NCBI RefSeq assembly: GCF_003334385.1
Contig: NZ_QOWN01000010.1
Origin: Escherichia coli
GTDB lineage: Bacteria > Pseudomonadota > Gammaproteobacteria > Enterobacterales > Enterobacteriaceae
DNA length: 64,000 nucleotides
Direction: 5' to 3' (one strand)
Each line of letters opens with the position of its first letter. Within the stretch, counting starts at the first letter, position 1. Both the position numbers and the translations under genes were made by a program. The notes below the pieces were generated by a model. It ran no database searches. It was not told the origin of the DNA and saw nothing but the letters and a program-made list of their open reading frames with translations. This document shows, in pieces, positions 11,578-41,353 of this stretch.

Positions 11578-12087
11578 TTAATGATACAAATTAGAGTGAA
11601 TTTTTAGCCCGGAAAGTTGTCTCGTGGCGTGAGAGGATGCGCTTACCGGACGCATAATAAACCCCATAGCGTTACCTTCATTTGCCGCATCAACAAGTTC
11701 AGCATGCTCTTCTTCAGTCAAATCATCTGCCAACCAACCGATCACCACACTGTAATTGCCCGTGCGTAAAGCGCGAACCATTGACTCCACAGTGTGGCAA
11801 GGGGAGAGCTGGCTAATCTGCATTACTTTCGTTAAGGGTAGCCCAGATGCCTGAACCCATTCCCGACTCAGTTTTTGTTGCGGTGTTAACCAGAGTTGCC
11901 AGCGCGATTGCTGACCGAGTTGCTGTAACAATGGCAACAGTAGAAGTTGCGTCATCATGGGCTGATCTTCGCGATAGACAACTTCACTGATAAGCCCGGC
12001 TGTAGTGTTTTCCGTAGAGACACGCGCAATTTTACTTGCTGCGGATGAGAACGACGAAGAACGATGTGCATAGCCTGAAGTGTACAT
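11578..12087 (-). CDS. sulA: SOS cell-division inhibitor SulA
   Basis: ORF trimmed to [23 protein letters not shown] (169 aa). Confidence 0.95.
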
Positions 12088-12109
12088 AATCAATCCAGCC
12101 CCTGTGAGT

Positions 12110-12305: not shown

Positions 12306-12935
12306 ATGAAAAGCCTCTCCTATAAGCGGATCTATAAATCACAAGAATACCTGGCAACGTTGGGCACAATTGAATACCGATCATTGTTTGGCAGTTACAG
12401 CCTGACCGTTGACGACACGGTGTTTGCGATGGTTTCTGATGGTGAGTTGTATCTTCGGGCTTGTGAGCAAAGTGCACAGTACTGTGTAAAACATCCGCCT
12501 GTCTGGCTGACATATAAAAAGTGTGGCCGATCCGTTACCCTCAATTACTATCGGGTTGATGAAAGTCTATGGCGAAATCAACTGAAGCTGGTGCGTCTGT
12601 CGAAATATTCTCTCGATGCAGCGCTGAAAGAGAAAAGCACGCGCAATACCCGGGAAAGACTGAAAGATTTGCCCAATATGTCTTTTCATCTGGAAGCGAT
12701 TCTCGGGGAGGTGGGGATTAAGGATGTACGGGCGTTACGTATACTTGGGGCAAAAATGTGTTGGTTGCGACTGCGGCAGCAAAACAGTCTGGTGACAGAA
12801 AAGATTCTGTTTATGCTTGAAGGTGCCATTATCGGCATTCATGAAGCTGCGCTCCCGGTGGCACGCCGCCAGGAGCTTGCAGAATGGGCTGACTCTCTTA
12901 CGCCGAAACAGGAGTTTCCTGCGGAACTTGAGTAA
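12306..12935 (+). CDS. sxy: Competence regulator Sxy/TfoX
   Basis: 209-aa ORF MKSLSYKRIYKSQEYLATLG...; AT-rich upstream leader. Confidence 0.93.
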   Translation: MKSLSYKRIYKSQEYLATLGTIEYRSLFGSYSLTVDDTVFAMVSDGELYLRACEQSAQYCVKHPPVWLTYKKCGRSVTLNYYRVDESLWRNQLKLVRLSKYSLDAALKEKSTRNTRERLKDLPNMSFHLEAILGEVGIKDVRALRILGAKMCWLRLRQQNSLVTEKILFMLEGAIIGIHEAALPVARRQELAEWADSLTPKQEFPAELE

Positions 12936-15051
12936 TCTGGCGTTGCAGACGACCAATCTCAGGCAGTAATGCAATCAATAATCCAACTTGTTGTACGACC
13001 AGAGGTTCTTTGCTGTCTGCCCGTGGTTCAAGTTGCTGCATCCGCTGTTTCAGGCTAGCTAATGCCTCATTGACGCGTTCTTCATCAGCAGGTTGATGAT
13101 GTAACGCGTCATCAACATAGCAAACTGCGTCATCAAGAAACGCCAGAATTTCAGGATTAGTTAACTGCTCCCGGTGAGCACCGAGGGCTGAGATATAGCT
13201 GGTAAACGTATGGTTAAGGCACAGCAACCGAAACGCGGCTTCGCGAATTTGCGGGGTAACGTTCGGCTCGCTGGACATATTTGATACCACCGACGCCAGC
13301 TCAGCATCACGGTTGTGTGCATCGCGGCGGGCAATACGATACGCCAGACGGTTATCACGCCCCTGATGGTATTGCTCCAGTATGGCATCGAGATACCGAC
13401 AGTTGGCCTCTGTGGCGCGTTCGAGCATGCGCGGCAGATTGCGAAACTGCCAGTCAGGCCAGATGTAGCTCACTGCCGCCCACGCAATGGCACAACCAAT
13501 CAGCGTATCGATTACGCGAGGTAACGCTACTTCAAAACCTTCACCCAGTAAGTTAAAACACAGTAGCACCAAAAGTGTGATGAACATCGTTGCATGAGCG
13601 TATTGCACGTTACGGAAGGCAAAAAAGAGCACGCCGGTAATAACCAGCAGCACCAGCTGCCCTTCCAGTGATGGCACAAACCACAGCACAGGAATACCAA
13701 TGGCGATACCTACCAGCGTACCAATAATCCTTAACTTCAGGCGGTGGCGCGTGGCGTTATAGTTTGGCTGGCAGACAAACAAACTTGTCAGCAAGATCCA
13801 ATACCCGTGATGCATTCCGGTTATCTGAATGATGGCGTAGCCGAAGCACAACACCAGCGACATTCTTACCGCATGACGGAAGAGGGCGGATTCCGGCGTG
13901 AAGTGACGGCTAAGACGCAGCCAGATATCACTCAACCCGTGCGGGCTGTCATCAGCGAGCTCATTTTCGTCATTATTATGGGGTAGTGCCTGGGCCTGTT
14001 CTGATTCAATTGTTGCCAGTTGGGCATCAATGGCGCGTAAATTGTTCAGCAAAAATCCCAGTGTTTTGAGTAAATCGGCGGGTGCGCCGTTATCGCGCAT
14101 CCGCTCCAGCGCAGCATCAATATGCGTAAAAGCGCGCTCAAAATGCGGATCATGTTGATAAGGCTGACGCAACAAAATACAGCGTGACAGTTGCTGGCAC
14201 GCCTGGCCCTGCATCGACATCAGCCGCTGAAAACGGAACAGCACGTCGCTGTGGCGAAAATGTTCACGCAATGTTTGATACTGAATATGAGAAGAGCTGG
14301 CACGCTCGTGAATATCCTGTGCGACAAAGTAATAATGCAGCGTGCGACGCGTTCCCCGTTGACCACGATCGCCACGTAAGCGGGTCAGCAGCGAGAGTTT
14401 CGTCTGATTCAATGTCGCCATCAGCAGACCGTTGGCGAGAGCCAAATCGTACAGCGGTGCCTGGCTTTGATCTTCAATATCAGGATCAAACATGCGCGAC
14501 TTGAGCTCAAGATAACGCGCCAGTTGTTCATAGCAACGCGCCAGGTTGTCCTGCAGCGGGCGGACCGGGAACAGCAGATGACCAATAAGTGTCAGGACGT
14601 TGTACCAGACGGCACCGGCCAGCAGATACATCGGCTGCTGATACCAGTGCTCATACAGTGATGTTCCCAACATAGTGTAAATGGCGATCAGCAATGCACC
14701 GAAGGCAATTGTTGCATAGCGTTGACCCAGACCGCCGAGCAAAATGAAGCCGCTGGTAGAGAGCGTTAAGCCAATCGCAAATAGCCAGGGCCAGGGAAAC
14801 AGCAATTCTACTGAGGCCGAGGCGATAAAAAAGCAGAACAGCGTAATGATGAGGTTACGCAAACGTCCCGCCAGTCGGTCATCGAGATCGGTCAGCGCCG
14901 CTGCCACCATCCCCAGCGTTAGCGGAATCGTCAGTTTTACATCACCCAGCCACCACGGAAACGCTGTGGTTCCACAAAGCGCAATAAAAATACGCGCGTA
15001 ATACAGCCAGGCGCTGTTCCAGGTATAGCGTTTGAGCAAAGGACTTAGCAT
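12898..15051 (-). CDS. yccS: Inner membrane protein YccS (FUSC-like putative transporter)
   Basis: 720-aa ORF trimmed to MLSPLLKRYTW (717 aa, from memory); alternative ATG at 15060; 3' end overlaps the sxy 3' end. Confidence 0.85.
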   Translation of the reverse strand: MLSPLLKRYTWNSAWLYYARIFIALCGTTAFPWWLGDVKLTIPLTLGMVAAALTDLDDRLAGRLRNLIITLFCFFIASASVELLFPWPWLFAIGLTLSTSGFILLGGLGQRYATIAFGALLIAIYTMLGTSLYEHWYQQPMYLLAGAVWYNVLTLIGHLLFPVRPLQDNLARCYEQLARYLELKSRMFDPDIEDQSQAPLYDLALANGLLMATLNQTKLSLLTRLRGDRGQRGTRRTLHYYFVAQDIHERASSSHIQYQTLREHFRHSDVLFRFQRLMSMQGQACQQLSRCILLRQPYQHDPHFERAFTHIDAALERMRDNGAPADLLKTLGFLLNNLRAIDAQLATIESEQAQALPHNNDENELADDSPHGLSDIWLRLSRHFTPESALFRHAVRMSLVLCFGYAIIQITGMHHGYWILLTSLFVCQPNYNATRHRLKLRIIGTLVGIAIGIPVLWFVPSLEGQLVLLVITGVLFFAFRNVQYAHATMFITLLVLLCFNLLGEGFEVALPRVIDTLIGCAIAWAAVSYIWPDWQFRNLPRMLERATEANCRYLDAILEQYHQGRDNRLAYRIARRDAHNRDAELASVVSNMSSEPNVTPQIREAAFRLLCLNHTFTSYISALGAHREQLTNPEILAFLDDAVCYVDDALHHQPADEERVNEALASLKQRMQQLEPRADSKEPLVVQQVGLLIALLPEIGRLQRQITQVPQETPVSA

Positions 15052-15069
15052 AAAGGCCATATTAGTGGA

Positions 15070-15516
15070 TTATTCAAAACGACGACGTGCATTGGCTTCA
15101 CGCGCAGCTTGCGCTGTTTCTACCGATACCACGCGACGACCAACCGGCCATAGTGCAATAGCGGCAATTTTAAAGTTCGCAATGCCGACAGGAATGCCAA
15201 TGATTGAAATACATTGTGCGATGCCCGTTGCAATGTGCATCAGGCATAACCACCAGCCAAAGAAAATCAGCCAGAAAATATTCAATACCGTACCGCCAGT
15301 ATTCAGCAGCACATTTTTGCCAGCCGGGTTCAGTTCATCGACATGAATAGCTTCATTGCCATAAGGCACCAGAGACAGTTTAGTGATCTCCCAGCAGGAT
15401 CGTGTCAGCGGTAAGGTAAAAATCAGCACAATACTGACCAGAGTCGCCAACAGCCAGCCCAGAGTGGTGGCAAATCCGCCAAGCACAAAGTTCAGAATGT
15501 TCAAAACGGTACGCAT
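15070..15516 (-). CDS. yccF: Inner membrane protein YccF
   Basis: 148-aa hydrophobic ORF MRTVLNILNFVLGG...; immediately upstream of yccS. Confidence 0.92.
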   Translation of the reverse strand: MRTVLNILNFVLGGFATTLGWLLATLVSIVLIFTLPLTRSCWEITKLSLVPYGNEAIHVDELNPAGKNVLLNTGGTVLNIFWLIFFGWWLCLMHIATGIAQCISIIGIPVGIANFKIAAIALWPVGRRVVSVETAQAAREANARRRFE

Positions 15517-21231: not shown

Positions 21232-21510
21232 ATGTCGAAAGTCTGCATAATTGCCTGGGTTTACGGGCGAGTTCAGGGCGTAGGATTTCGCTACACCACA
21301 CAGTACGAAGCGAAAAGACTGGGTTTAACCGGGTACGCCAAAAATCTTGACGATGGCAGCGTGGAAGTGGTTGCTTGCGGTGAAGAAGGGCAGGTGGAAA
21401 AATTAATGCAGTGGTTAAAGAGTGGCGGCCCGCGTTCTGCGCGTGTAGAACGGGTGCTCAGCGAGCCGCATCATCCCTCGGGGGAATTAACCGATTTTCG
21501 TATCCGTTAA
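21232..21510 (+). CDS. yccX: Acylphosphatase
   Basis: ORF trimmed to [21 protein letters not shown] (92 aa); acylphosphatase signature. Confidence 0.92.
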
Positions 21511-40912: not shown

Positions 40913-41353
40913 AACTTTTCCTTTATTCATCGCATGGACAATACGTACGCTTGAGATCAGGATTGTCTACTTTGAGTATAACATCCTTGTGAAATCTCCC
41001 TTTCCTCATACCGCTTGCACTATATACTGCGGGTAGGAAAGGCGCGCAGAGGGAAATATAAGATTGTTAACTATCCCCCTCTGGAAATACGACTTGTGAG
41101 CATAAGATAAATCTTAGCAAAATACAAATTAAAGATAAGGAAATTGTTACGAAAGCTATTAATTATTGTTGGTAATATAGTTTCAAGTGGTACTATAACT
41201 GGCTGTTAAATGGCATTTATAACTATTAGGTGCAGAGATATTCGCTTAAATGGATTAGTTTCTTTGTGGAAAAGTAACTGATGTTATAATGTATGATGTT
41301 GACTATTGCACTATTCCAATAAAACCAGTCAGCTTTAAACAAGCAGCGTCATA

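What the first reader, a model, noticed from the sequence alone, without database searches (positions are those of the whole stretch)
12898..12935. Convergent overlap of sxy and yccS 3' ends
The competence regulator sxy and the membrane-protein gene yccS converge with 38 nt of shared sequence. As with torT/torR, each transcript is antisense to the other's 3' end. Sxy is known to be tightly post-transcriptionally controlled, so antisense interference from yccS is a possible extra layer.
Basis: inference. Interest (0 to 1): 0.25.

Follow-up and report, generated by a model that had tools for sequence, protein, structure and literature searches.

The report
Ordinary sxy–yccS gene-end overlap
The last 38 bases of the E. 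coli competence-regulator gene sxy and of the oppositely oriented membrane-protein gene yccS do overlap, but this is a common, chance-level and already catalogued kind of gene-end overlap with no evidence that it controls Sxy.

Summary
RefSeq annotates the same overlap in MG1655 and in divergent strains, and the region is present in all 5,426 complete E. coli genomes.

The overlap is ordinary. It covers only the unconserved C-terminal tails of both proteins, which lie outside Pfam TfoX_C and outside the TIGR01666 YccS profile. Across 80 enterobacterial species the conserved cores lie 46-56 nt apart where both anchors could be located (68 sequences). Overlap length takes 14 values from 4 to 80 nt, and four species have none. 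The overlapped stretch is the least conserved part of the junction. Shuffling the 55-nt spacer still gives an overlap in 81% of trials (median 95 nt), so 38 nt is no more than chance.

The window holds two more convergent overlaps, torT/torR (28 nt) and yccX/tusE (4 nt). E. coli has about 58.

[quoted passage not shown] Nobody has tested a regulatory effect on Sxy, and nothing here supports one.

Verdict: already known, low interest.

The parts
12306..12935 (+). sxy (tfoX) coding sequence, 209 aa, CRP-S regulon co-activator
   Evidence: ORF. RefSeq annotation. Pfam TfoX_N matches residues 14-106 and TfoX_C residues 116-194.
12898..15060 (-). yccS coding sequence (720 aa in the PGAP annotation; MG1655 annotates a start 9 nt downstream), YccS/YhfK-family putative transporter
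   Evidence: ORF. Annotation. TIGR01666 matches residues 11-709 with 1262 bits. Pfam FUSC-like, FUSC_2 and FUSC domains.
12898..12935 (.). 38-nt tail-to-tail CDS overlap. It encodes Sxy residues about 198-209 (..TPKQEFPAELE*) and YccS residues 710-720 (TQVPQETPVSA*). Codon position 1 of one gene faces position 1 of the other, and positions 2 and 3 face 3 and 2.
   Evidence: Both tails lie outside the family profiles. This is the lowest conservation at the junction across 80 species.
12888..12942 (.). 55-nt variable spacer between the conserved cores. The Sxy core ends at W194 (12885-12887). The YccS motif LLPEIxRLQ ends at 12943.
   Evidence: Alignments A1 and A2. The anchor-to-anchor spacing is 46-56 nt in all 71 sequences where both anchors were found (68 of the 80 scanned loci plus L001, L002 and the window). 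Shuffle test.
15070..15516 (-). yccF, the upstream gene of the yccF-yccS operon whose transcript runs into sxy
   Evidence: ORF. Annotation. The operon is named in PMC4161252.
12664..12793 (-). C-rich, G-poor stretch in the yccS read-through RNA, 105-230 nt past the yccS stop. It is a candidate Rho-utilisation region. This is an inference only.
   Evidence: 78-nt windows show C 0.29-0.40, G 0.12-0.15 and up to 20 YC dimers.
13043..13085 (+). Weak hairpin plus a T-containing tail, 108 nt past the sxy stop and inside yccS. It is the only terminator-like site on the sxy strand near the junction, and it is weak.
   Evidence: Liberal hairpin scan, -9.3 kcal/mol with tail TTCTTCAT. The stricter scan did not find it.

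Best explanation
This is an ordinary convergent (tail-to-tail) coding overlap produced by stop-codon drift at a locus that has almost no intergenic DNA. Since at least the common ancestor of the sampled Enterobacteriaceae, the conserved cores of Sxy and YccS have sat only about 50 nt apart. Each reading frame runs on past its core until it meets a stop codon, so each protein carries a short, poorly constrained C-terminal tail, and the two tails are written on opposite strands of the same ~50 nt. Because there is no spacer, there is no intergenic terminator. Each mRNA must cross at least 38 nt of the other gene and probably ends further inside it. My inference is that the ends come from Rho acting on the untranslated read-through RNA, from weak intragenic hairpins, or from head-on polymerase collisions. 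The two transcripts are therefore complementary at their 3' ends whenever both genes are on. This is the generic state of most convergent E. coli operons and has been catalogued for this pair. Any effect on Sxy output is most likely small and incidental rather than a selected control layer. Shown: the overlap, its evolutionary pattern, the lack of sequence constraint, the chance expectation, and the absence of a strong terminator motif. Inferred: how termination happens and that regulatory impact is negligible.
For: The overlap and its annotation are. Pfam TfoX_C ends at Sxy residue 194 and TIGR01666 ends at YccS residue 709 of 720, so the overlap lies outside both profiles. Sxy residues 195-209 vary in sequence and length; Salmonella Sxy is 201 aa. 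Among 80 species-level genomes, 74 show an overlap, with 14 different lengths from 4 to 80 nt. Two more have a disrupted yccS frame but overlapping homologous sequence, one has abutting stops, one has an 11-nt gap, one has a 249-nt spacer and one has a 2286-nt gap holding two ORFs of 200 and 425 aa. Core-to-core spacing is 46-56 nt. Column conservation is 0.47-0.63 in the bins spanning 12891-12935, against about 0.7-0.9 in the adjoining cores (alignment). Shuffling the spacer gives overlap in 81% of trials with a median of 95 nt. No terminator-like site lies at the junction. The folds are unremarkable, with z = +0.41 on the + strand and -2.27 on the - strand. There is no Rfam match of note. 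E. coli has 58 convergent CDS overlaps, and only 20% of those genes have a predicted rho-independent terminator (PMC2174442). In E. coli, 276 of 370 convergent operons overlap, by 286 nt on average (PMC4161252). sxy-yccS is listed as a convergent excludon (PMC12288877).
Against: The arrangement without a spacer persists in 76 of 80 species, which could reflect selection for transcript overlap rather than neutral compaction. Observed overlaps (4-80 nt) are shorter than the shuffle median of 95 nt, so stop-codon positions are not fully neutral. I read this as selection against long junk tails, but I did not test that. No transcript-end data for this locus were available to me: the Term-seq supplements of PMC7815308 do not mention either gene, and the supplements of the two RNA-seq papers are not held. 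The termination mode is therefore an inference.
Confidence: 0.8

Rival explanations
1. Functional excludon. Transcription of yccF-yccS into sxy, and the reverse, is a selected mutual-repression device. Polymerase collisions truncate the sxy mRNA, or RNase III cuts the 3' duplex, giving stop-less transcripts and lowering Sxy.
For: Overlapping transcripts are documented. The spacer-less arrangement is kept in 76 of 80 species. There is no terminator at the junction. A candidate rut region lies only 105-230 nt inside sxy, so yccS read-through should cover a substantial part of the sxy 3' half. No natural inducing condition for E. coli sxy is known (abstract of PMC3330819), so extra repression is conceivable. 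Excludon pairs as a class show higher synteny than other neighbouring pairs.
Against: No functional test exists for this pair. The overlap sequence is the least conserved part of the junction and its length varies from none to 80 nt. Two species separate the genes by 249 nt and 2286 nt. A chance model already predicts overlap in 81% of cases. 75% of all convergent operons overlap, so the property is generic. p19 dsRNA capture recovered very few 3'-end duplexes in E. coli. The Sxy controls found in the literature act at the promoter, the 5' UTR or the protein.
Confidence: 0.12
2. Annotation or sequence artefact. One of the two tails is not really translated because of a sequencing error or a mis-called gene end, so there is no true coding overlap.
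For: A published survey found that many long convergent overlaps (over 60 bp) are 3'-extension misannotations (PMC2478687).
Against: The 3' ends are fixed by stop codons. The 901-nt query spanning the junction is at least 99% identical in 4934 genomes and present in all 5426. The same overlap is annotated in MG1655, the curated reference. Overlaps occur in 74 of 80 species in independent assemblies. At 38 nt the overlap is below the 60-bp range where that survey found artefacts.
Confidence: 0.02
3. Programmed bidirectional terminator. A shared hairpin within the overlap serves as a two-way intrinsic or collision-positioning terminator for both genes.
For: A 5-bp palindrome, CAGGAGTTTCCTG, lies at 12910-12922 inside the overlap. 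Collision-driven bidirectional termination at convergent pairs requires a stem-loop (bioRxiv 10.1101/2022.10.23.513370).
Against: The palindrome has only 5 bp, no flanking U/A tracts, and did not pass either terminator scan. It is already broken in the closely related Escherichia sp. MOD1 and absent in other genera. The + strand fold is no better than shuffles, with z = +0.41.
Confidence: 0.05

Closest known systems
Convergent (tail-to-tail) overlapping prokaryotic genes arising by stop-codon loss or 3' extension (Rogozin 2002 as cited in PMC2478687; Lillo & Krakauer 2007, PMC2174442)
   Same: Two bona fide genes on opposite strands, each with its stop inside the other. The overlap is confined to weakly constrained C-terminal tails. 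The length is modest (38 nt). E. coli has about 58 such pairs, and convergent overlaps make up about 7% of all overlaps between well-characterised genes.
   Different: Nothing material. The only modest distinction is that the spacer-less state is unusually widespread across the family (76 of 80 species) while the overlap length itself keeps changing.
Convergent excludons / overlapping 3' ends of convergent operons in E. coli (PMC4161252; PMC12288877)
   Same: The sxy and yccF-yccS transcripts converge and overlap, and the pair is named in both catalogues.
   Different: The defining functional property of an excludon is mutually exclusive expression through interference or RNase III. That has not been shown for this pair.
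torT/torR and yccX/tusE in the same window
   Same: Both are convergent CDS overlaps: 28 nt at 47653..47680 and 4 nt at 21507..21510. Both are also in the excludon list.
   Different: torT and torR belong to one regulatory system. sxy and yccS have no known functional link.
Bidirectional intrinsic terminators and collision-driven termination between convergent genes (bioRxiv 10.1101/2022.10.23.513370)
   Same: Convergent transcription units in which polymerases must meet.
   Different: That mechanism needs a defined stem-loop between the gene boundaries. No such conserved element exists here.

Membership tests
Convergent (tail-to-tail) overlapping gene pair | Both partners are real, conserved protein-coding genes on opposite strands | tested here: met
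   Sxy matches Pfam TfoX_N and TfoX_C. YccS matches TIGR01666 at 1262 bits. Orthologues of both were found in 80 species.
Convergent (tail-to-tail) overlapping gene pair | The stop codon of each gene lies within the coding sequence of the other | tested here: met
   The sxy stop is at 12933-12935 and the yccS stop at 12900-12898. The annotations are identical.
Convergent (tail-to-tail) overlapping gene pair | The overlap is found in more than one genome, so it is not a single-genome artefact | tested here: met
   74 of 80 species overlap directly, and 76 of 80 when two disrupted yccS copies are counted.
Convergent excludon | Transcripts of the two units overlap in vivo | not testable with these tools
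   There are no expression data in this toolset. Published evidence exists: PMC4161252 and PMC12288877 (at least 50% of 58 transcriptomes). It also follows logically, because the CDSs overlap.
Convergent excludon | Expression of one partner lowers expression of the other through transcriptional interference or RNase III processing | not testable with these tools
   No study of this pair was found. The p19 dsRNA validation was not feasible for convergent excludons.
Convergent excludon | [quoted passage not shown] | tested here: inconclusive
   Only weak hairpin-plus-U candidates lie inside the partner genes: 13043-13085 on + and 12530-12494 and 12392-12349 on -. The stricter scan found none near the junction.
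Bidirectional intrinsic terminator | A G+C-rich hairpin flanked by an A-tract and a U-tract between the convergent genes, conserved in relatives | tested here: not met
   No such site was found at 12880-12960. The 5-bp palindrome at 12910-12922 lacks the tracts and is not conserved.

The most novel reading that the evidence does not exclude
The near-universal lack of a spacer between sxy and yccS in Enterobacteriaceae is selected because read-through from the yccF-yccS operon damages sxy mRNA 3' ends, through collision-truncated or RNase III-cut stop-less transcripts. That would set a threshold helping to keep the competence regulon silent, and could contribute to the failure to find natural inducing conditions for E. 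coli sxy.
Probability: 0.06. Interest if true: 0.4.

Novelty: already known. Interest (0 to 1): 0.07.

Why it matters
It matters little. If the antisense idea were true it would add a 3'-end layer to Sxy control and give one worked example among the roughly 165 catalogued E. coli convergent excludons, almost none of which has a demonstrated function. As the evidence stands, the locus is a clean textbook example of how convergent overlaps arise. Two conserved cores lie about 50 nt apart, the stop codons drift, and the overlap is expected by chance. It is useful mainly as a negative control when screening for meaningful overlaps.

Tried and rejected
1. Intrinsic or bidirectional terminator at the junction. 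Both the consensus scan and a liberal hairpin-plus-U scan found nothing there, and the folds are not exceptional. Rejected.
2. A conserved RNA element in the overlap. Rfam gave only a sub-threshold snoRNA chance hit, and the multi-species alignment shows a conservation trough. Rejected.
3. Extra constraint from dual coding. I expected higher conservation in the overlap and found the opposite.
4. Published 3'-end maps. The supplements of PMC4161252 and PMC12288877 are not held. The Term-seq supplements of PMC7815308 mention neither gene. This led nowhere.
5. A literature search for any functional study of the pair under either gene name returned only the two catalogues. A whole-word search for 'yccS' mostly returned unrelated acronyms.
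6. Apparent large gaps in L013 and L042 turned out to come from a broken yccS frame, not real spacers.
7. I did not trace the arrangement outside Enterobacteriaceae (Yersinia, Serratia, Klebsiella). The large database scans needed were not justified for a finding this ordinary.

Full report
**What is there.** The window is an E. coli K-12-like chromosome segment. It is 99.96-99.99% identical to MG1655 1008833-1073500 and lacks the IS1D copy. Around the finding the gene order is matP, ompA, sulA, sxy, yccS, yccF, helD. sxy occupies 12306..12935 on the + strand (209 aa). yccS occupies 12898..15060 on the - strand (720 aa). RefSeq annotates the same overlap in strain E2865, in a strain only 91.7% identical here and in MG1655 (sxy 1021138..1021767, yccS 1021730..1023883). 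The region is present in 5426 of 5426 complete E. coli genomes. Because 3' ends are fixed by stop codons, the overlap does not depend on annotation choices.

**Anatomy of the overlap.** The 38 nt encode the last ~12 residues of Sxy (..TPKQEFPAELE) and the last 11 residues of YccS (TQVPQETPVSA). Codon position 1 of one gene faces position 1 of the other, and positions 2 and 3 face 3 and 2.
- Pfam TfoX_C ends at Sxy residue 194.
- The curated TIGR01666 YccS profile ends at residue 709 of 720.
- Both overlapped tails therefore lie outside the family-defining regions.
- In an alignment of 15 Sxy orthologues the last invariant residue is W194. Residues 195-209 vary in sequence and length, and Salmonella Sxy stops at 201.

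**Comparative evidence.** A scan of one genome per species with the Sxy alignment returned 80 loci from Escherichia, Salmonella, Citrobacter, Enterobacter, Lelliottia, Leclercia, Kosakonia, Kluyvera, Buttiauxella, Trabulsiella and others. I located both stop codons in each locus.
- 74 of 80 have a tail-to-tail overlap, with 14 different lengths: 4, 7, 11, 14, 16, 20, 23, 32, 35, 38, 41, 44, 47 and 80 nt.
- Two more (L013, L042) have a disrupted yccS frame whose homologous sequence still overlaps sxy.
- One has abutting stops (L079) and one an 11-nt gap (L075).
- One has a 249-nt spacer containing strong palindromes (L049).
- One has a 2286-nt gap containing two ORFs of 200 and 425 aa (L051).

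The distance between the conserved cores, from Sxy W194 to the YccS motif LLPEIxRLQ, is 46-56 nt in every sequence where both anchors were found. The lack of an intergenic region is therefore old and persistent, while the stop codons wander. Per-column conservation across the 80 sequences is lowest in the overlap: 0.47-0.63 in the bins spanning 12891-12935, against about 0.7-0.9 in the adjoining cores. Alignment A2 shows this directly. There is no sign of the extra constraint that a functional dual-coding or RNA element would impose.

**Is it more than chance?** No. I kept the real flanks and shuffled the 55-nt spacer (12888..12942) 20,000 times. The two frames overlap in 81% of trials and by at least 38 nt in 71%, with a median overlap of 95 nt. 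Given cores this close, overlap is the default. The real overlaps are shorter than the random expectation, which suggests mild selection against long junk tails rather than for overlap. That last point is an inference.

Convergent overlaps are also common locally and genome-wide.
- Three of the 13 convergent CDS pairs in MG1655 1007000..1073500, which contains this window, overlap: sxy/yccS 38 nt, torT/torR 28 nt at 47653..47680, and yccX/tusE 4 nt at 21507..21510.
- E. coli has been reported to contain 58 convergent overlaps, and only 20% of the genes involved have a predicted rho-independent terminator (PMC2174442).
- Origin by stop-codon loss or 3' extension is the standard account (PMC2478687).

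**Transcription.** No terminator-like site lies at the junction, either in the consensus scan or in a more liberal hairpin-plus-U scan.
- The nearest candidates are weak and lie inside the partner genes: 13043-13085 on the + strand, and 12530-12494 and 12392-12349 on the - strand.
- Folding of the sxy 3' region is no better than shuffles (z = +0.41). The yccS 3' region is modestly structured (z = -2.27).
- The only local palindrome, CAGGAGTTTCCTG at 12910-12922, is already broken in a close Escherichia relative.
- Rfam finds nothing of note.
- The yccS read-through RNA has a C-rich, G-poor stretch at 12793..12664, with C up to 0.40 and G as low as 0.12. This is a plausible Rho-utilisation region, but that is an inference.
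- The sxy read-through RNA has no such bias.

I therefore infer that both transcripts run at least 100-300 nt into the partner gene. They would end by Rho, by weak hairpins or by polymerase collision, for which a defined stem-loop is normally required (bioRxiv 10.1101/2022.10.23.513370).

**What is already known.** Conway et al. [quoted passage not shown] They report that 276 of 370 convergent operons overlap, by 286 nt on average. ExcludonFinder (PMC12288877, 2025) lists sxy-yccS, together with torT-torR and yccX-tusE, among 165 convergent excludons seen in at least 50% of 58 MG1655 transcriptomes. That paper also notes that dsRNA validation was not feasible for convergent pairs. The antisense relationship is thus catalogued, but no functional test of this pair exists in the searchable literature.

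[quoted passage not shown] None involves the 3' end.

**Verdict on the interpretation.** The statement that each transcript is antisense to the other's 3' end is true, and it follows directly from the overlap. The suggestion that this forms an extra regulatory layer on Sxy is untested. It is not favoured by the comparative data: a variable and occasionally absent overlap, a conservation trough, and a chance-level expectation. I put about 0.8 on the 'ordinary stop-drift overlap with incidental transcript complementarity' reading. I put about 0.12 on a functional excludon, and a few percent each on a programmed bidirectional terminator or an artefact.

**Novelty and interest.** Already known, ordinary, low interest.

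Noticed in passing
window 47653..47680: torT (46652..47680, +) and torR (47653..48345, -) overlap tail-to-tail by 28 nt. This pair is also in the published excludon list.
   Followed up: partly
window 21507..21510: yccX (ends at 21510, +) and tusE (stop at 21507, -) overlap by 4 nt, the classic shared-stop tetramer type of convergent overlap. This pair is also in the excludon list.
   Followed up: partly
window ~40937..40945: Relative to MG1655, the window lacks the 768-bp IS1D element between gfcA and cspH. It is otherwise 99.96-99.99% identical, so the source is a close K-12 relative rather than MG1655 itself.
   Followed up: no
window 15051..15060: The yccS start differs between annotations. 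PGAP aa (ATG at 15060), while the MG1655 record calls a start 9 nt downstream (717 aa). This is irrelevant to the 3' overlap.
   Followed up: no
window 11578..12093 (sulA): Conway et al. describe a stationary-phase antisense transcript that fully overlaps sulA, the gene next to sxy, citing Cole & Honore 1989. It starts somewhere in or near the sulA-sxy intergenic region and could share promoter space with sxy.
   Followed up: no
window 12664..12793, - strand: The RNA antisense to the sxy 3' half is strongly C-rich and G-poor (C up to 0.40, G down to 0.12). This is a candidate rut site for Rho termination of yccS read-through.
   Followed up: partly
L049 4625..4873: In an uncultured Enterobacteriaceae genome (UBA5654), sxy and yccS are separated by a 249-nt spacer carrying strong palindromes (e.g. 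CCCCTGTATCCC...GGGATACAGGGG). These look like an inserted REP-like or terminator element.
   Followed up: no
L051 4616..6901: In Superficieibacter electus, two ORFs lie between sxy and yccS, both on the yccS strand: a 425-aa hydrophobic one (membrane-protein-like on inspection) and a 200-aa one. The overlap is therefore dispensable.
   Followed up: no
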